A DNA stretch of 64,000 nt from assembly GCF_003334385.1 (NCBI RefSeq), contig NZ_QOWN01000017.1. One strand, written 5' to 3'. The DNA is from Escherichia coli. Lineage in GTDB: Bacteria; Pseudomonadota; Gammaproteobacteria; Enterobacterales; Enterobacteriaceae. The position numbers and the translations under genes were made by a program. The notes beneath the pieces were generated by a model. It was given only the letters and a program-made list of their open reading frames with translations. It made no database searches and was not told the origin of the DNA. Shown piece after piece: positions 16,454-24,056 of this stretch. Each line of letters opens with the position of its first letter. The first letter of the stretch is position 1.

Positions 16454-17395
16454 ATGCGCGAAAAGGATTATGTCGTAATTATAGGTTCGGCGAATATTGA
16501 TGTCGCCGGATATTCACATGAATCATTAAATTATGCGGATTCAAATCCAGGTAAAATAAAATTTACGCCTGGTGGAGTAGGGCGCAATATTGCACAAAAC
16601 CTGGCGTTGCTGGGTAACAAAGCCTGGCTACTGAGCGCCGTAGGCAGTGATTTTTATGGTCAATCGCTGCTAACGCAAACCAATCAATCTGGCGTTTATG
16701 TCGATAAATGCCTGATTGTGCCGGGAGAAAATACGTCGAGTTATTTATCATTACTCGATAATACCGGTGAAATGCTGGTTGCTATAAATGACATGAATAT
16801 TAGCAACGCTATTACAGCTGAATATCTCGCACAGCACGGTGAATTTATTCAGAGGGCAAAGGTCATTGTCGCGGACTGTAATATCAGTGAAGAGGCACTG
16901 GCATGGATTCTGGATAATGCCGCCAACGTACCCGTATTTGTCGATCCGGTTTCGGCATGGAAATGTGTCAAAGTGCGCGACCGTCTAAATCAGATCCACA
17001 CTCTCAAGCCAAACCGCCTTGAAGCGGAAACCCTGAGTGGGATTGCGCTGTCAGGGCGTGAAGATGTGGCAAAAGTTGCTGCCTGGTTCCATCAACATGG
17101 CCTGAACCGACTGGTATTGAGCATGGGCGGCGACGGCGTTTATTACAGCGATATCAGCGGTGAAAGTGGCTGGTCTGCGCCGATCAAAACCAATGTTATT
17201 AATGTTACCGGAGCGGGCGATGCCATGATGGCGGGACTTGCTTCGTGTTGGGTAGACGGAATGCCGTTTGCCGAATCTGTTCGTTTCGCACAGGGATGTT
17301 CGTCAATGGCGCTCTCCTGTGAATACACCAATAACCCCGATTTATCGATTGCCAACGTTATATCGTTAGTGGAGAACGCAGAATGTCTGAATTAA
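16454..17395 (+). CDS. psuK: pseudouridine kinase PsuK (PfkB family)
   Basis: 313 aa ORF, ribokinase/PfkB fold motifs (GAGDAMMAG); synteny with psuG, psuT. Confidence 0.85.
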   Translation: MREKDYVVIIGSANIDVAGYSHESLNYADSNPGKIKFTPGGVGRNIAQNLALLGNKAWLLSAVGSDFYGQSLLTQTNQSGVYVDKCLIVPGENTSSYLSLLDNTGEMLVAINDMNISNAITAEYLAQHGEFIQRAKVIVADCNISEEALAWILDNAANVPVFVDPVSAWKCVKVRDRLNQIHTLKPNRLEAETLSGIALSGREDVAKVAAWFHQHGLNRLVLSMGGDGVYYSDISGESGWSAPIKTNVINVTGAGDAMMAGLASCWVDGMPFAESVRFAQGCSSMALSCEYTNNPDLSIANVISLVENAECLN

Positions 17396-18327
17396 AAATT
17401 TCCCCTGAATTATTACAAATTTCCCCGGAAGTGCAGGACGCTTTAAAAAACAAAAAACCGGTTGTGGCGCTGGAATCGACCATTATTTCTCACGGGATGC
17501 CGTTCCCACAAAATGCCCAGACCGCAATTGAAGTTGAAGAAACTATTCGTAAACAGGGCGCTGTACCTGCCACGATCGCCATTATTGGCGGCGTGATGAA
17601 AGTGGGGTTAAGCAAAGAAGAAATTGAATTACTGGGTCGTGAAGGGCATAACGTGACCAAAGTTAGTCGTCGCGATTTACCTTTTGTTGTTGCCGCCGGA
17701 AAAAATGGCGCAACCACTGTGGCTTCAACGATGATTATTGCGGCGCTTGCCGGAATTAAAGTATTTGCCACCGGGGGAATTGGTGGTGTGCATCGCGGGG
17801 CGGAACATACCTTCGATATTTCTGCCGATTTGCAAGAACTGGCAAATACTAATGTCACCGTTGTTTGTGCCGGGGCGAAATCTATTCTCGATTTAGGATT
17901 AACCACTGAGTATTTAGAAACCTTCGGTGTGCCGTTAATTGGCTATCAGACTAAAGCGCTGCCTGCGTTTTTCTGCCGCACCAGCCCGTTTGACGTCAGC
18001 ATTCGTCTCGACAGCGCCAGCGAAATTGCCCGTGCAATGGCGGTGAAATGGCAAAGCGGTCTGAACGGTGGCCTCGTGGTAGCGAACCCGATCCCGGAAC
18101 AGTTTGCTATGCCGGAACACACTATCAATGCGGCGATCGATCAGGCGGTAGCTGAAGCTGAAGCTGAAGCTCAGGGAGTCATTGGTAAAGAAAGTACGCC
18201 ATTCCTGCTGGCGCGCGTTGCTGAACTGACCGGCGGTGACAGCCTGAAATCCAACATCCAGCTGGTGTTCAACAACGCCATTCTGGCGAGCGAAATTGCC
18301 AAAGAATATCAGCGTCTCGCGGGTTAA
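17383..18327 (+). CDS. psuG: pseudouridine-5'-phosphate glycosidase PsuG
   Basis: 314 aa ORF overlapping psuK by 13 nt; indigoidine synthase A-like family; contains (gctgaa)x3 in-frame repeat at 18151-18168. Confidence 0.85.
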   Translation: MSELKISPELLQISPEVQDALKNKKPVVALESTIISHGMPFPQNAQTAIEVEETIRKQGAVPATIAIIGGVMKVGLSKEEIELLGREGHNVTKVSRRDLPFVVAAGKNGATTVASTMIIAALAGIKVFATGGIGGVHRGAEHTFDISADLQELANTNVTVVCAGAKSILDLGLTTEYLETFGVPLIGYQTKALPAFFCRTSPFDVSIRLDSASEIARAMAVKWQSGLNGGLVVANPIPEQFAMPEHTINAAIDQAVAEAEAEAQGVIGKESTPFLLARVAELTGGDSLKSNIQLVFNNAILASEIAKEYQRLAG

Positions 18328-18420
18328 TTTCTGACGGGCAGAAAGCCGTCGCCCGTACTCATCAAGCATACCAAAACCTGGCGCTGACGCCGGGTTTACC
18401 GGCATGAAGGGAAAATCATT

Positions 18421-19671
18421 ATGGATATAATGAGAAGTGTTGTGGGGATGGTGGTGTTACTGGCAATAGCATTTCTGTTGTCAGTGAATAAAAAGAGCAT
18501 CAGTTTGCGCACGGTTGGAGCCGCACTGCTGCTGCAAATCGCTATTGGTGGCATCATGCTCTACTTCCCACCGGGAAAATGGGCAGTAGAACAGGCGGCA
18601 TTAGGCGTTCATAAAGTGATGTCTTACAGTGATGCCGGTAGCGCCTTCATTTTTGGTTCGCTGGTTGGGCCGAAAATGGATGTCCTGTTTGACGGTGCGG
18701 GTTTTATCTTCGCCTTTCGCGTACTTCCGGCGATTATTTTCGTTACTGCGCTCATCAGTCTGCTGTACTACATTGGCGTGATGGGGCTGCTGATTCGCAT
18801 CCTTGGCAGCATTTTCCAGAAAGCCCTCAACATCAGCAAAATCGAATCTTTTGTTGCGGTTACTACTATTTTCCTCGGGCAAAATGAGATCCCGGCGATC
18901 GTTAAACCGTTTATCGATCGCATGAATCGCAACGAGTTGTTTACCGCAATTTGTCGCGGGATGGCGTCCATTGCTGGTTCGATGATGATTGGTTATGCCG
19001 GAATGGGCGTACCAATTGACTACCTGTTAGCGGCATCGCTGATGGCGATCCCTGGCGGGATTTTGTTTGCACGTATTTTTAGCCCGGCAACCGAGCCTTC
19101 GCAGGTCACATTTGAAAATCTGTCGTTCAGCGAAACGCCGCCAAAAAGCTTTATCGAAGCGGCGGCGAGCGGTGCGATGACCGGGCTAAAAATCGCCGCT
19201 GGTGTGGCGACGGTGGTAATGGCGTTTGTCGCAATTATTGCGCTGATCAACGGCATTATCGGCGGAATTGGCGGCTGGTTTGGTTTCGCCAATGCCTCTC
19301 TGGAAAGTATTTTTGGCTATGTGCTGGCACCGCTGGCGTGGATCATGGGTGTGGACTGGAGTGATGCCAATCTTGCGGGTAGCCTGATTGGGCAGAAACT
19401 GGCGATTAACGAATTCGTCGCTTACCTGAGTTTCTCCCCATACCTGCAAACGGGCGGCACGCTGGAAGTGAAAACCATTGCGATTATCTCCTTTGCGCTT
19501 TGTGGTTTTGCTAACTTTGGTTCTATCGGTGTTGTCGTTGGCGCATTTTCGGCTATTTCGCCAAAACGCGCGCCGGAAATCGCCCAGCTTGGTTTACGGG
19601 CGCTGGCAGCAGCAACGCTTTCCAACCTGATGAGTGCGACTATTGCCGGGTTCTTTATTGGTCTGGCGTAA
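18421..19671 (+). CDS. psuT: concentrative nucleoside (CNT family) transporter, PsuT
   Basis: 416 aa polytopic membrane protein, paralog of the ORF at 21611..22861; directly downstream of psuG. Confidence 0.75.
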   Translation: MDIMRSVVGMVVLLAIAFLLSVNKKSISLRTVGAALLLQIAIGGIMLYFPPGKWAVEQAALGVHKVMSYSDAGSAFIFGSLVGPKMDVLFDGAGFIFAFRVLPAIIFVTALISLLYYIGVMGLLIRILGSIFQKALNISKIESFVAVTTIFLGQNEIPAIVKPFIDRMNRNELFTAICRGMASIAGSMMIGYAGMGVPIDYLLAASLMAIPGGILFARIFSPATEPSQVTFENLSFSETPPKSFIEAAASGAMTGLKIAAGVATVVMAFVAIIALINGIIGGIGGWFGFANASLESIFGYVLAPLAWIMGVDWSDANLAGSLIGQKLAINEFVAYLSFSPYLQTGGTLEVKTIAIISFALCGFANFGSIGVVVGAFSAISPKRAPEIAQLGLRALAAATLSNLMSATIAGFFIGLA

Positions 19672-19680
19672 TGCTCGATT

Positions 19681-19722
19681 TGTAGACCGGATAAAACGTA
19701 TTAAGCGTTGCATCCGGCAATC
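19681..19722. repeat. REP (repetitive extragenic palindrome) element
   Basis: tgtagaccggataaaacgtattaagcgttgcatccggcaa, typical REP/PU palindromic motif. Confidence 0.6.
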
Positions 19723-19741
19723 GCGCTATTGAAAATAATTT

Positions 19742-20401
19742 TTACTGCATCATCCCGGAGAATTTATTCTCCGGGTCCATCTCCAGCGCCAGTCCTGACA
19801 ACTGCTTTCTGTTTTTAATGAGATACCCTTTCTTGCTTTTAATTAATAAACCGTCGTGAATGAACTGCGCGAGAACATATAAAAGATGTCGATAAGAAAC
19901 GCCTAAATACTCTGCCGCTTGCGTATGCTTTTCGTGATAAAGATCACCTTCCTGCGAGAGTAATATAAATGCTGCCAGGCGATTCACTAACGGAAATGAT
20001 TGATTCTGAGTTAAAGAAACAATATTACGATAATTTTTATGACTTAAGGTGACGCAGAGTTTTCGTAAAAATAGCGTGTCGTTTAATAACAGCGGACGGT
20101 AATGTTTCATAGGGAGCGCAAGGCACCAACACTCTTCAATAGCCTGCACCGCACGCGGTTCATGGTCTTTATCGATTAACTCAATCTCGCCAATAAAACA
20201 GGGGGCGGCAAAGAAATCGATCAGCGACACGCGACCATTAGCTAGCGTGGCGTAAAGCCTGGCGCGGCCTCGCGTCAGGTAAAACAGCCAGGACGGCTGT
20301 TGCCCTTCCTGCACAATGTAGTCACGCGCTAAAAAATGAAACAGCCGCGTATCGGCTGAAACATCCGTTAAAAAGCAATCCTTAAACGCGGATTCACTCA
20401 T
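19742..20401 (-). CDS. yeiL: CRP/FNR-family transcriptional regulator YeiL
   Basis: Track ORF 19742..20440; probable start MSESAFKD (20401), 219 aa; cNMP-binding-like N-terminus and C-terminal HTH. Confidence 0.75.
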
Positions 20402-20569
20402 CAATTGCTGCTTAAGATCATTATTGTGGATTTCTTTCACGATGTTTATCCGCTATGAGATTTCTCATATTTAGCATACGTACGCTGTTGTTAAGATTCA
20501 ATCATCGGCCCGGTCGAATTTTCTTTGCTGTAGAAAAAATAACGCAACTGGAAACAGAGGAAATAAACA

Positions 20570-21511
20570 ATGGAAAAGAGAAAAATTATTCTGGATTGTG
20601 AGCCGGGTCATGATGATGCTATTGCTATAATGATGGCGGCGAAACATCCGGCAATAGATTTATTAGGCATCACTATTGTAGCGGGTAATCAGACGCTTGA
20701 TAAAACATTAATTAATGGCCTGAATGTTTGCCAGAAACTGGAGATTAATGTTCCGGTTTATGCGGGGATGCCGCAGCCCATTATGCGTCAACAAATCGTT
20801 GCCGATAATATTCACGGTGAAACCGGACTGGATGGCCCGGTATTCGAGCCGCTGACCCGCCAGGCAGAAAGCACTCATGCGGTGAAATATATCATTGATA
20901 CCCTGATGGCAAGCGATGGCGATATCACTCTGGTGCCGGTTGGTCCGCTTTCAAATATCGCGGTGGCAATGCGTATGCAACCCGCGATCCTGCCCAAAAT
21001 CCGTGAAATTGTGCTAATGGGCGGCGCTTACGGTACAGGCAACTTCACGCCATCTGCCGAGTTCAACATCTTTGCCGACCCGGAAGCCGCACGCGTAGTG
21101 TTCACCTCCGGCGTTCCATTAGTGATGATGGGCCTCGATCTCACCAACCAGACCGTTTGCACCCCGGACGTGATTGCTCGGATGGAAAGGGCAGGCGGCC
21201 CCGCCGGAGAGCTGTTCAGCGACATCATGAACTTCACTCTCAAAACGCAGTTCGAAAACTACGGCCTTGCTGGCGGCCCGGTGCACGACGCCACCTGCAT
21301 CGGTTATCTGATTAACCCTGATGGCATTAAAACCCAGGAGATGTACGTCGAAGTGGACGTCAACAGTGGCCCTTGCTATGGGCGTACCGTCTGCGACGAG
21401 CTGGGCGTTCTTGGCAAGCCCGCCAATACCAAAGTCGGCATCACTATTGATACAGACTGGTTCTGGGGATTAGTCGAAGAGTGCGTGCGCGGCTACATCA
21501 AAACCCATTAA
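20570..21511 (+). CDS. rihB: pyrimidine-specific ribonucleoside hydrolase RihB
   Basis: 313 aa ORF with inosine-uridine nucleoside hydrolase N-terminal DxDxxxDD motif ([11 protein letters not shown]). Confidence 0.85.
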
Positions 21512-21610
21512 GTGTTGATAACAAGCCGGGCCGGTATCGCAAGATGCAGGCCTGGCTATTTCTGATGGGCAGAAAGCCGTCGCCCAATATGACATGAAGA
21601 GATAATCACT

Positions 21611-22861
21611 ATGGATGTCATGAGAAGTGTTCTGGGAATGGTGGTATTGCTGACGATTGCGTTTTTACTGTCAGTAAACAAGAAGAAGATCAGCCTGCGT
21701 ACCGTTGGCGCGGCGTTAGTGTTACAGGTCGTGATTGGCGGCATTATGCTTTGGTTACCGCTAGGGCGTTGGGTCGCTGAAAAAGTCGCTTTTGGCGTGC
21801 ATAAAGTGATGGCGTACAGCGACGCGGGTAGCGCATTTATCTTCGGTTCTCTGGTCGGACCGAAAATGGATACCTTATTTGATGGTGCAGGATTTATCTT
21901 TGGTTTCAGGGTGTTACCGGCAATTATCTTCGTCACCGCGCTGGTGAGTATTCTCTACTACATCGGTGTGATGGGGATTTTAATTCGAATTCTCGGCGGT
22001 ATCTTCCAGAAAGCATTAAATATCAGCAAGATCGAGTCATTCGTCGCGGTCACCACCATTTTCCTCGGGCAAAACGAAATTCCGGCAATCGTCAAACCCT
22101 TTATCGATCGTCTGAATCGCAATGAATTATTTACAGCGATTTGTAGTGGCATGGCCTCGATTGCTGGTTCGACAATGATTGGTTACGCCGCACTGGGCGT
22201 GCCTGTGGAATATCTGCTGGCGGCATCATTAATGGCGATCCCTGGCGGGATCTTGTTTGCCCGCCTGTTAAGCCCGGCAACGGAATCTTCGCAGGTTTCC
22301 TTTAATAACCTCTCTTTCACCGAAACACCGCCAAAAAGCATTATTGAAGCCGCTGCGACAGGGGCAATGACCGGGCTGAAAATCGCCGCAGGTGTGGCAA
22401 CAGTGGTGATGGCATTTGTTGCAATAATTGCGTTGATTAACGGTATTATCGGCGGCGTTGGTGGCTGGTTTGGTTTTGAACATGCCTCGCTGGAGTCCAT
22501 TTTAGGTTACCTGCTGGCTCCACTGGCGTGGGTGATGGGTGTGGACTGGAGTGATGCGAATCTTGCCGGGAGTTTGATTGGACAGAAACTGGCAATAAAT
22601 GAATTTGTCGCTTATCTCAATTTCTCACCCTATCTGCAAACGGCTGGCACTCTCGATGCTAAAACTGTGGCGATTATTTCCTTCGCGTTGTGCGGTTTCG
22701 CTAACTTTGGTTCTATCGGGGTGGTGGTGGGGGCGTTTTCTGCGGTTGCGCCACACCGTGCGCCGGAAATCGCCCAGCTTGGTTTACGGGCGCTGGCGGC
22801 GGCGACGCTTTCCAACTTGATGAGTGCGACCATTGCCGGGTTCTTTATTGGTTTAGCTTGA
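21611..22861 (+). CDS. nupX: concentrative nucleoside (CNT family) transporter NupX
   Basis: 416 aa, highly similar along its length to the psuT product at 18421..19671; synteny next to yeiI. Confidence 0.75.
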   Translation: MDVMRSVLGMVVLLTIAFLLSVNKKKISLRTVGAALVLQVVIGGIMLWLPLGRWVAEKVAFGVHKVMAYSDAGSAFIFGSLVGPKMDTLFDGAGFIFGFRVLPAIIFVTALVSILYYIGVMGILIRILGGIFQKALNISKIESFVAVTTIFLGQNEIPAIVKPFIDRLNRNELFTAICSGMASIAGSTMIGYAALGVPVEYLLAASLMAIPGGILFARLLSPATESSQVSFNNLSFTETPPKSIIEAAATGAMTGLKIAAGVATVVMAFVAIIALINGIIGGVGGWFGFEHASLESILGYLLAPLAWVMGVDWSDANLAGSLIGQKLAINEFVAYLNFSPYLQTAGTLDAKTVAIISFALCGFANFGSIGVVVGAFSAVAPHRAPEIAQLGLRALAAATLSNLMSATIAGFFIGLA

Positions 22862-22869
22862 GTGTCATT

Positions 22870-22965
22870 GCCTGATGCGCAAGCTTATCAGGCCTACATT
22901 TACTTGCTGAAATTGCCTGATTTGTAGGCCGGATAAGACGCGTTAAGCGTCGCATCCGGCAACAT
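22870..22965. repeat. REP element pair (BIME-like)
   Basis: gcctgatgcgcaagcttatcaggcctaca and tgtaggccggataagacgcgttaagcgtcgcatccggcaa in opposite orientation. Confidence 0.6.
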
Positions 22966-22967
22966 TG

Positions 22968-24056
22968 TTACACCATTGGCACTAATGAAAGCGCGTTATC
23001 GGCAGACAGGGTAGGGTTGTTTAAGCTGCCGCTGGCGCGCGAAATTGCCGCGCAGGCTACCGCAAAACGGGCGCTGTCGCGGAAACTGTATCCTTCAAGA
23101 AAGCTATATACCAGGCCCGCCATAAAACCATCGTCAGCACCAAAACTGTCTACTGTCGTATGCGCTGGCGCGGTCAGCAAAAATTGTTCTCCATCCTTTT
23201 CGCTGCAATAAACTGACTCATCGGGCAAATAAACAAACAGTTGCTGAACACCTTGCTGATGCAATGCATTCACTGCGGTATTACGGTCAGCATCGCTGGT
23301 GATCGCCTGTCCCCATAAAATTTCCAGCTCCGGTAAAGTGGGTTTCAGGGTGTGAATATGCGCCAGCCAGTGTTTGATTTTGCCCGCTTTGAATTCTGAA
23401 ACGGTATCGACAAACACCGGGATTTCATCAGCGAGGGTAAAGACCCATTCCAGCGCCTCGGCTGTCAGGTTGCAATCAGCCAGTACCACGCCCGCATGAC
23501 GAAGTAAATCGCGCGACCCGTTCAGTAGTTGCGGTGTCAACTGTTCCAGCAGATGGGTATCGTTAATCGCCAGCACGGTTTGATCGTCTCGATTGGCAAT
23601 TGCCAGATACGTCGATGTGCTTTGACCATGCAAACGAACGCAGCCGGAGACATTCACGCCGGCACGGCGCGTTTCTTCCAGGAGCATTTCGCCATAAAAG
23701 TCATCGCCAATCACTGAAAGCAAATGGACGTCACGGCCTAACAGCGCCAGATTGTGGGCGATGTTGCGTCCCACGCCGCCCGCTGAGCAATGAATTGTAC
23801 CGGGATGAGAAGCCGATTGCGGGTAACGGATATCCGCCATCCCGCGAATATCCATATTGATTGTCCCCACCACTACGCAGTATTCCTGCTCGGTGAGAAT
23901 GTAACCTTTGCCTTTAATCCGGCCTTTGCGCATTAAATCCATAATATGCGCCGCAACGCGCGAACGGCTGATTTGCAGCATGTCCGCAATTTCGTTCTGC
24001 TGAATCAGCGGGTTACGCCGTAAAATTGCAAGGATCTCCTTTTCCCGGTTATTCAT
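22968..24056 (-). CDS. yeiI: PfkB-family sugar/nucleoside kinase with N-terminal HTH domain, YeiI
   Basis: 362 aa ORF; N-terminal winged-helix-like segment followed by ribokinase-like domain; paralogous to psuK. Confidence 0.8.
   Translation of the reverse strand: MNNREKEILAILRRNPLIQQNEIADMLQISRSRVAAHIMDLMRKGRIKGKGYILTEQEYCVVVGTINMDIRGMADIRYPQSASHPGTIHCSAGGVGRNIAHNLALLGRDVHLLSVIGDDFYGEMLLEETRRAGVNVSGCVRLHGQSTSTYLAIANRDDQTVLAINDTHLLEQLTPQLLNGSRDLLRHAGVVLADCNLTAEALEWVFTLADEIPVFVDTVSEFKAGKIKHWLAHIHTLKPTLPELEILWGQAITSDADRNTAVNALHQQGVQQLFVYLPDESVYCSEKDGEQFLLTAPAHTTVDSFGADDGFMAGLVYSFLEGYSFRDSARFAVACAAISRASGSLNNPTLSADNALSLVPMV

What the first reader, a model, noticed from the sequence alone, without database searches (positions are those of the whole stretch)
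18328..18357. Conserved leader hairpin upstream of psuT, shared with nupX, with a compensatory base change
tttctgacgggcagaaagccgtcgcccgta upstream of psuT recurs upstream of nupX as tttctgatgggcagaaagccgtcgcccaat (21558-21589). The stem acgggc/gcccgt becomes atgggc/gcccaa, a partly compensated C:G to T:A change that preserves pairing around an identical loop agaaagccgtc. This suggests a functional RNA or operator element common to the two paralogous nucleoside transporters, duplicated along with the genes.
Basis: seen in the sequence. Interest (0 to 1): 0.45.

Follow-up and report, generated by a model that had tools for sequence, protein, structure and literature searches.

The report
Conserved leader hairpin before nucleoside transporters
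A 23-base RNA stem-loop with a nearly unchanging loop sits just upstream of two sister nucleoside-transporter genes (psuT and nupX) in E. coli and across its bacterial order; it looks like an uncatalogued regulatory RNA whose binding partner is still unknown.

Summary
A 28-base block (ATTTCTGA[C/T]GGGCAGAAAGCCGTCGCCC) lies upstream of both psuT and nupX, although silent sites of the two genes are only 48% identical.

A protein-based search, blind to the motif, returned 54 psuT/nupX leaders from about 45 Enterobacterales species. Nearly all carry NN-GGGC-A-G-NNN-GC-N-GU-C-GCCC-NN. It follows psuG in one context and rihB in the other.

- 91.5% of cells are paired.
- Five of seven pairs show changes on both sides.
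- The key pair is C:G in 33 leaders, U:A in 14 and U·G in 3.
- RNAalifold predicts the same stem independently.

Two other pairings possible in E. coli are not conserved elsewhere. The loop identity between the E. coli copies is partly Escherichia-specific, because four loop positions vary freely in other genera.

No Rfam family matches, I found no paper describing it, and E. coli genomes typically hold just these two copies (median 2, maximum 3).

There is no U-tract, no conserved pseudoknot partner, no predicted effect on Shine-Dalgarno access, and no operator-like symmetry.

Best reading: an autonomous mRNA hairpin recognised by a trans-acting factor, probably a protein, that sets transporter expression separately from the upstream enzyme genes. 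The mechanism is inferred, not shown.

The parts
18334..18356 (+). psuT-leader hairpin. 5' strand ACGGGC at 18334-18339, 11-nt loop AGAAAGCCGUC at 18340-18350, 3' strand GCCCGU at 18351-18356. Within the loop, A18340 is bulged and G18341 pairs with C18350.
   Evidence: Sequence. Stem covariation on 54 leaders. RNAalifold. Covariance-model hit of 36.9 bits.
21565..21587 (+). nupX-leader hairpin. 5' strand AUGGGC at 21565-21570, loop AGAAAGCCGUC at 21571-21581, 3' strand GCCCAA at 21582-21587. The outermost A·A is unpaired in this strain.
   Evidence: Sequence. Covariance-model hit of 31.9 bits. Another E. coli strain (L001) has GCCCAU, which restores the outer pair.
18373..18397 (+). Second hairpin of the psuT leader: AAAACCUGGCG-CUGA-CGCCGGGUUU. 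It is conserved in psuT-type leaders and absent from most nupX-type leaders. It is followed by only three U.
   Evidence: RNAalifold on 20 leaders gives a 9-bp stem with variable loop sequence. It accounts for the 41-nt insertion relative to nupX.
21524..21557 (+). rihB 3' hairpin AGCCGGGCC-(16 nt)-GGCCUGGCU. It lies immediately upstream of the nupX hairpin, and its AUUUCU tail is the 5' flank of the motif.
   Evidence: Fold. Other genera have a different, non-homologous hairpin at this place.
18407..18423 (+). psuT Shine-Dalgarno (AAGGGA, 18407-18412) and start codon (18421-18423). The hairpin ends 64 nt before the AUG.
21596..21613 (+). nupX Shine-Dalgarno-like GAAGAG and start codon (21611-21613). 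The hairpin ends 23 nt before the AUG.

Best explanation
The element is a cis-acting stem-loop in the mRNA, on the + strand and in the sense of the transporter genes. It lies in the intercistronic leader of the last cistron of two operons: psuK-psuG-[hairpin]-psuT and rihB-[hairpin]-nupX. It has a 5-6 bp stem whose four inner pairs are almost always GGGC/GCCC, a bulged A, one further G:C pair, and a loop with fixed G-C-N-G-U. It was already present before psuT and nupX duplicated and has been under purifying selection in both copies across Enterobacterales. These points are shown. What follows is inferred. Both stem identity and scattered loop bases are fixed. The hairpin folds on its own and does not change predicted Shine-Dalgarno access. 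It has no U-tract and no conserved pairing partner nearby. It therefore most likely serves as a sequence-specific docking site for a trans-acting factor. A protein is most likely, as for coat-protein, ribosomal-protein or ThrRS operators. Less likely, an sRNA invades GUCGCCC. The factor would tune translation or stability of the transporter cistron independently of the upstream enzyme cistrons. The factor and the direction of control are unknown.
For: The motif is conserved in 54 leaders retrieved by protein similarity only. Columns G10, U22 and C26 are invariant in 54/54, and G18, G21 and G24 are kept in 52-53/54. The stem is 91.5% paired. Five of seven pairs have changes on both sides, and 0/500 shuffles reach the observed values on four of the five summary measures (31/500 for further pair types). 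Slid controls give 32-51% paired. RNAalifold finds the same 5-bp stem without guidance. The alternative stems GACGG/CCGUC and UUUCUG/CAGAAA fail. Wobble evidence for the + strand comes from 9 G·U cells in at least 4 lineages within the inner pairs. In addition, E. coli ATCC 25922 carries GGUGGGC...GCCCGUAC, which gives G·U and U·G. The paralogues are only 47.6% identical at four-fold sites, against 27/28 in the block. The hairpin is always on the sense strand, 25-68 nt from the transporter start, whatever the upstream gene. The predicted hairpin is stable (-6.4 to -13.7 kcal/mol) and forms with P > 0.9 in 19 of the 30 leaders folded (P < 0.35 in six). Forcing or blocking it does not shift predicted Shine-Dalgarno accessibility. 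The covariance model finds no other copy in 415 kb. E. coli genomes hold a median of 2 copies, with a maximum of 3.
Against: No binding factor is identified and no expression data exist for the site. The 3'-end and TSS tables I could search list nothing there. Three Enterobacter leaders have C·A at the main covarying pair, which would pair only on the opposite strand. The Hafnia, Izhakiella and Pluralibacter leaders keep a hairpin at this place but not the loop sequence. A distant psuKGT operon (L183, 66% identical transporter) has a hairpin with an 11-nt loop of unrelated sequence. A purely structural role in some lineages therefore cannot be excluded. Much of the covariation at the C:G/U:A pair follows the psuT/nupX split, so it represents few independent events.
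Confidence: 0.4

Rival explanations
1. It is a passive structural element. In this reading the hairpin is a processing or stability determinant or an RNA-polymerase pause hairpin. It would protect the upstream enzyme message from 3' exonucleases, or form a protective 5' stem-loop after cleavage, and so set different levels of enzyme and transporter without any specific partner.
For: The element is intercistronic in both operons. In psuT-type leaders the stem starts 7-13 nt after the psuG stop, where a terminating ribosome would melt it. Hafnia replaces the loop by a perfect 12-bp stem, and L183 has an unrelated hairpin at the same place. So in some lineages a hairpin as such is what is kept.
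Against: A passive hairpin does not need fixed stem identity (GGGC/GCCC in 52-54 of 54) or fixed unpaired bases (G18, C19, G21, U22) over an entire order. nupX-type leaders already have a separate rihB 3' hairpin just upstream.
Confidence: 0.2
2. It is a minimal ligand-sensing RNA, a very small riboswitch. The hairpin, perhaps with 3' tail nucleotides, would bind a pyrimidine nucleoside metabolite such as pseudouridine, uridine or a derivative, and control the transporter cistron.
For: The element is gene-specific and lies upstream of transporters in two pyrimidine-nucleoside salvage operons. Stem and loop nucleotides are fixed, as in small aptamers. The 11-nt loop and the ACCAAAA tail in many leaders superficially recall preQ1-I architecture (the comparison is from my own knowledge).
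Against: No conserved pseudoknot partner of 5 bp or more exists within 80 nt upstream or up to +90 of the CDS. The tail is deleted in many nupX leaders, including E. coli. There is no expression platform: no U-tract, and Shine-Dalgarno access is unaffected. No Rfam riboswitch matches even at E <= 10. Twenty-three nucleotides is smaller than any known single-hairpin aptamer.
Confidence: 0.12
3. It is a DNA operator. A transcription factor such as YeiL would bind the double-stranded site GGGC-N11-GCCC and act as a roadblock or as an activator of a transporter-specific promoter.
For: The arms form an inverted repeat. yeiL is adjacent to rihB-nupX in all nupX-type loci. C·A mismatches in Enterobacter do not fit + strand RNA pairing.
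Against: Only the four arm bases are symmetric. The conserved inner bases (AG...GC.GUC) are not palindromic. Arm centres lie about 15-16 bp apart, roughly one and a half helical turns, so they face opposite sides of the helix. This is unlike CRP/FNR or LysR boxes (my own knowledge). Flanking pairs covary instead of keeping a sequence, and G·U is tolerated. Orientation relative to the gene is fixed. No sigma-70-like promoter is called at either site in the scanned region. Many genomes keep the psuT hairpin without yeiL nearby.
Confidence: 0.1
4. It is part of a 3'UTR-derived small RNA or an attenuator. In this reading hairpin 1, the linker and hairpin 2 of the psuG-psuT spacer form a terminated transcript or a termination switch.
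For: The psuT spacer has the layout hairpin, A/U-rich linker, GC-rich hairpin, UUU. It gives weak sub-threshold Rfam similarity to sRNAs with this layout: isrJ at 18.9 bits and FsrA at 14.6 bits.
Against: Those scores are far below the gathering thresholds of 37 and 80 bits. The U-tract is only three U. Most nupX leaders lack hairpin 2 yet keep hairpin 1. No alternative pairing links hairpin 1 to hairpin 2 (my own inspection of the aligned leaders).
Confidence: 0.08

Closest known systems
Protein-binding mRNA operator hairpins (MS2/PP7 coat-protein operators, the thrS operator, ribosomal-protein operators)
   Same: It is a short stem with a bulged A and a loop holding a few fixed bases. It lies in an mRNA leader close to the regulated cistron. 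It is an autonomous fold, and stem pairs covary while contact bases stay fixed.
   Different: No binding protein is known. It lies 23-64 nt upstream of the start codon and does not overlap the Shine-Dalgarno sequence. There is no sequence similarity to any of these operators, and Rfam is negative.
preQ1-I riboswitch (Rfam RF00522), the smallest common riboswitch class
   Same: It has a G-rich stem of about 5 bp, a loop of about 11 nt, and an A-rich tail in many leaders. It lies upstream of a transporter for a modified-nucleoside-related compound.
   Different: No cmscan hit was found even at E <= 10. No conserved loop-tail helix was found. The tail is dispensable in many nupX leaders.
Intercistronic stabiliser or attenuator hairpins (REP in malE-malF, the rph-pyrE attenuator)
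   Same: It lies between an enzyme gene and a downstream gene. In psuT-type leaders it starts about 7-13 nt after the upstream stop codon, a geometry like rph-pyrE (the comparison is from my own knowledge).
   Different: It is not a repeated extragenic element, with two copies per genome in the typical E. coli. It has no U-tract. Its loop sequence is conserved, which those elements do not need.

Membership tests
Any Rfam 15 family | A covariance-model match at or near the gathering score | tested here: not met
   There is no hit on the hairpin at E <= 10 in the window (8 kb and 131 nt scans) or in five diverse loci. The only overlapping hits are isrJ at 18.9 bits (threshold 37) and FsrA at 14.6 bits (threshold 80). 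Both are driven by generic hairpin layout.
Riboswitch (small H-type pseudoknot, preQ1-I-like) | A conserved second helix between the loop and a 3' tail | tested here: not met
   A search for 5-bp complements to the loop in 33 leaders found none at a fixed distance from the hairpin (at most 6 of 33). The best CDS site, at +45, shows no covariation with the variable loop base.
Riboswitch (any) | Specific ligand binding that changes RNA structure or expression | not testable with these tools
   This needs in-line probing or reporter assays.
Intrinsic terminator / attenuator | A GC-rich stem followed directly by a U-tract | tested here: not met
   The stem is followed by GUACUCAUC in psuT and AAUAUGAC in nupX. 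Neither site is called by the terminator scan.
Dyad-symmetric transcription-factor operator | Conserved palindromic half-sites with helical-phase spacing | tested here: not met
   Only GGGC/GCCC is symmetric, and the conserved inner bases are asymmetric. Flanking positions covary rather than being conserved, and G·U is tolerated.
REP/BIME or other dispersed repeats | Many copies per genome in unrelated intergenic regions | tested here: not met
   Across 5425 E. coli genomes the median is 2 places and the maximum 3. The covariance model finds only the expected sites in 415 kb.
Short leader peptide / small ORF | A conserved start codon and a codon-like substitution pattern | tested here: not met
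   The AUG in AUGGGC exists only in nupX-type leaders; psuT-type leaders have ACG, GCG or CCG. The variable positions 15-17 and 20 do not fall at third codon positions of that frame. This is my own reading of the alignment.
Protein-binding operator hairpin | A specific protein bound to the RNA with a regulatory consequence | not testable with these tools
   Only the anatomy is compatible: a bulged A, fixed loop bases and fixed stem identity.

The most novel reading that the evidence does not exclude
The hairpin is the sensor of a previously unknown regulatory system for pyrimidine-nucleoside salvage. It would be either the smallest single-hairpin riboswitch, responding to pseudouridine, uridine or a derivative, or the operator of a dedicated and still unidentified RNA-binding regulator shared by the pseudouridine (psuKGT) and uridine/cytidine (rihB-nupX) operons.
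Probability: 0.12. Interest if true: 0.8.

Novelty: new member of a known kind. Interest (0 to 1): 0.45.

Why it matters
psuKGT and rihB-nupX are poorly understood operons. rihB is reported silent in laboratory strains (my own knowledge), and no transport activity has been detected for PsuT. A hairpin conserved order-wide with fixed loop bases, specific to the transporter cistron of both operons, gives a concrete handle on how these genes are controlled. It is a small, clean candidate for a new RNA-protein or RNA-ligand pair. It is also a compact example of a cis-element kept in both copies through a gene duplication, with textbook compensatory change. It would not overturn any current view, because conserved leader hairpins are a familiar kind of element.

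Tried and rejected
- **Alternative E. coli pairings.** GACGG/CCGUC and UUUCUG/CAGAAA are not conserved outside Escherichia.
- **Shine-Dalgarno sequestration switch.** Forcing or blocking the hairpin leaves predicted Shine-Dalgarno accessibility unchanged in 30 leaders.
- **Pseudoknot or long-range pairing of the loop.** No conserved partner was found. The recurrent +45 site in the CDS is explained by Ile-Ala codons and does not covary.
- **Small ORF.** MGRKPSPNMT in E. coli nupX has no start codon in psuT-type leaders.
- **Metagenome scan with GGGCAGNNNGCGGTCGCCC.** Only L171 was a true psuG-psuT spacer. L069, upstream of a tilS-like gene, looks like chance. It was uninformative about other genomic contexts.
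- **RfaH ops similarity.** The non-Escherichia GCGGUCGC against GGCGGTAGCGTG is 8/12. It fails at the variable loop position, which is C or U in Escherichia. This is a comparison from memory, rejected as coincidence.
- **Sigma-54, LysR, CRP/FNR, CytR and DeoR boxes.** None fits on inspection against consensus sequences recalled from memory.
- **Literature.** Searches for psuT, nupX, yeiM, yeiJ, psuG, rihB, and RIL-seq or 3'-end tables found nothing on this site. They gave only RprA-psuK chimeras and an antisense TSS inside nupX. One search timed out.
- **Outgroups.** NupC-family homologues of 31-47% identity, and a 66% identical psuT from 'Bartonella sp. HY', lack the motif.

Full report
**Context.** The window is an E. 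coli segment. In order it carries fruK, fruA, psuK (16454-17395), psuG (17383-18327), psuT (18421-19671), yeiL (minus strand, 19742-20440), rihB (20570-21511) and nupX (21611-22861). This follows from the ORFs and from RefSeq annotation of matching genomes. PsuT and NupX are 88% identical proteins of the NupC/CNT family.

**The observation.** The 30-mer is at 18328-18357, beginning right after the psuG stop codon. The second copy is at 21559-21588, 47 nt after the rihB stop.

The 19-base core occurs exactly twice in 64 kb, against 0.01 expected. Aligned, the two leaders share a sharply bounded block, ATTTCTGA[C/T]GGGCAGAAAGCCGTCGCCC, that is 27/28 identical. The 29 bases upstream match at 9/29. 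The coding sequences are 78.7% identical, but only 47.6% at four-fold degenerate sites. The duplication is therefore old, and a non-coding block this well kept is not neutral. Folding each copy alone is not significant (z = -2.0 and -0.9).

**Orthologous leaders.** I retrieved relatives by protein similarity, which is blind to the motif. This gave 59 loci from one genome per species. Forty-eight of them (L001-L046, L049, L050) are Enterobacterales with transporters 79-99% identical to the query.

tblastn of the neighbouring genes shows two conserved contexts: psuK-psuG-transporter, and yeiL(-)-rihB-transporter. Fifty-four leaders were aligned, including second copies within loci and the two in the window. 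Nearly all contain NN-GGGC-A-G-NNN-GC-N-GU-C-GCCC-NN, 25-68 nt before the start codon. The genera include Escherichia, Citrobacter, Klebsiella, Enterobacter, Kosakonia, Phytobacter, Buttiauxella, Salmonella, Superficieibacter, Ewingella and Pantoea.

Columns G10, U22 and C26 are invariant in 54/54. G18, G21 and G24 are kept in 52-53/54. Loop positions 15-17 and 20 vary freely.

**Structure.**
- 91.5% of cells pair.
- Five of seven pairs have changes on both sides.
- No shuffle out of 500 reaches the observed values for four of the five summary measures (31/500 for further pair types).
- Sliding the partner strand drops pairing to 32-51%.

The outermost pair holds in only 28 of 51 distinct sequences. 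In the core, Enterobacter sichuanensis has one G:C to U:A change and Hafnia has one G:C to A:U change. RNAalifold, given no structure, returns the same 5-bp stem with an 11-nt loop.

Two other pairings possible in E. coli are not maintained elsewhere: GACGG/CCGUC at 67% paired and UUUCUG/CAGAAA at 47%, neither better than the slid controls.

**Which strand.** Within the six inner pairs there are 9 G·U cells in at least four lineages. There are 4 A·C cells, all in Enterobacter. E. coli ATCC 25922 carries GGUGGGC...GCCCGUAC, which turns the two outer pairs into G·U and U·G. About 1040 E. coli genomes fall in the same 90-95% identity band, but I sequence-checked only this one. This favours sense-strand RNA, though not overwhelmingly.

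**What it is not.**
- No Rfam 15 family matches, even at E <= 10 and on very short inputs. The only overlaps are isrJ and FsrA at half or less of their thresholds, driven by generic layout.
- It is not a dispersed repeat. E. coli genomes have a median of two places and a maximum of three. A covariance model built from 43 leaders (R1) finds only the expected sites in 415 kb. Its one extra hit is the leader of a psuT pseudogene in L027.
- It is not a terminator, because no U-tract follows.
- It is not a convincing operator. Only the four arm bases are symmetric, the fixed inner bases are not, and the flanks covary instead of being conserved.
- It is not an ORF. The AUG of AUGGGC exists only in nupX-type leaders.
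- It does not gate the ribosome-binding site in any simple way. Forcing or blocking the hairpin in 30 leaders leaves predicted Shine-Dalgarno accessibility unchanged. The hairpin itself is stable (-6.4 to -13.7 kcal/mol) and dominant (P > 0.9) in the ensemble of 19 of the 30 leaders, but weak (P < 0.35) in six, including the window's nupX copy.
- No segment within 80 nt upstream or up to +90 of the CDS is consistently complementary to the loop. The best recurring site does not covary.

**Limits of the family.** Hafnia, Izhakiella and Pluralibacter keep a hairpin at the same place with a different loop. Hafnia has a perfect 12-bp stem with a tetraloop. A psuKGT operon with a 66% identical transporter, labelled 'Bartonella sp. 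HY...' in NCBI records, has two hairpins in the psuG-psuT spacer. The first has an 11-nt loop of unrelated sequence. Homologues of 31-47% identity have nothing comparable. The sequence motif is thus an Enterobacterales feature, while a hairpin as such may be older.

**Escherichia peculiarity.** In genomes of other genera that hold both copies (Phytobacter L011, Citrobacter amalonaticus L028, Klebsiella spallanzanii L026/L042), the free loop positions and the flanks differ between the copies. In Escherichia all four free loop bases and eight flanking bases are identical. This points to a short gene-conversion tract or lineage-specific selection. The deeper signal is the conserved skeleton.

**Mechanism.** Shown: a sense-strand hairpin under selection, ancestral to both paralogues, and specific to the transporter cistron. 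Inferred: fixed stem identity, scattered fixed loop bases and a bulged A are the anatomy of a recognition site, not of a passive fold. I therefore favour a trans-acting factor, most likely a protein, that tunes translation or decay of the transporter cistron separately from the enzymes (confidence about 0.4). The rivals are:
- a passive processing, stability or pause hairpin (0.2);
- a minimal ligand sensor (0.12);
- a DNA operator (0.1);
- part of a 3'UTR sRNA or attenuator together with the second hairpin (0.08).

No transcript or interaction data for the site could be found.

**Verdict.** It is an uncatalogued, order-wide cis-regulatory RNA hairpin candidate of a familiar kind. It is of moderate interest, and the experiments needed to test it are straightforward.

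Noticed in passing
window 18373-18406; loci L005-L049 at equivalent places: psuT-type leaders carry a second conserved hairpin, AAAACCUGGCG-N4-CGCCGGGUUU. It is flanked by a direct repeat of CCUGGC, once in its 5' strand and once just downstream (CCUGGCAUGAAGGG). nupX-type leaders mostly have a single CCUGGC and no hairpin, so the hairpin looks like a ~21-nt insertion or duplication. The middle strand can pair with either copy, giving a possible three-segment switch.
   Followed up: partly
window 18328-18354 versus 21559-21585: In Escherichia the two copies are identical at all four free loop positions and in the TTTCTGA flank. Other genera with both copies differ at these positions. This suggests a short gene-conversion tract between the paralogous leaders. 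It also creates Escherichia-only alternative pairings, UUUCUG/CAGAAA and GAYGG/CCGUC.
   Followed up: partly
window 21586-21590; L001:5665-5680: Most Escherichia nupX leaders, including the window, lack 12 nt directly 3' of the hairpin. These bases are present in E. coli SCPM-O-B-8794 (...GCCCATAACGGGATCAGACCTGACATG) and in other genera. The deletion also removes the outermost A:U pair.
   Followed up: yes
L182 (E. coli 13C1065T) 401-427; L027:252-562: Signs of decay. Strain 13C1065T has rihB annotated as a pseudogene and a C-to-A change in the 3' strand of the hairpin stem (GCCA). Escherichia sp. MOD1-EC7003 has a large internal deletion of psuT but an intact leader hairpin.
   Followed up: partly
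window 19570-19607 and 22760-22797: A 38-nt run of perfect identity occurs inside the psuT and nupX coding sequences. Silent sites are otherwise about 48% identical, so this may be another conversion tract or a constrained segment.
   Followed up: no
window 18395-18432 and 21588-21622: The ribosome-binding region is unusually conserved at the nucleotide level across genera: CCUGGCAUGA(A/C)GGGAA(A/G)AUCAUUAUGGAUAUAAUG. In many psuT-type leaders an upstream AUG opens an 8-codon ORF overlapping the start. That AUG is absent in Klebsiella-type leaders.
   Followed up: no
window 19685-19772 and 22927-22974: REP-like palindromes lie downstream of psuT and of nupX. They give sub-threshold naRNA4 hits on both strands.
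   Followed up: no
L183 (Logan SRR24146886 contig): A complete psuK-psuG-psuT operon has a transporter 99% identical to proteins labelled 'Bartonella sp. HY761/HY406' and 66-69% identical to enterobacterial PsuT/NupX. The nearest relatives outside its own 80-100% cluster are all enterobacterial, so it is probably a horizontal transfer. Its spacer has two hairpins but not the motif.
   Followed up: partly
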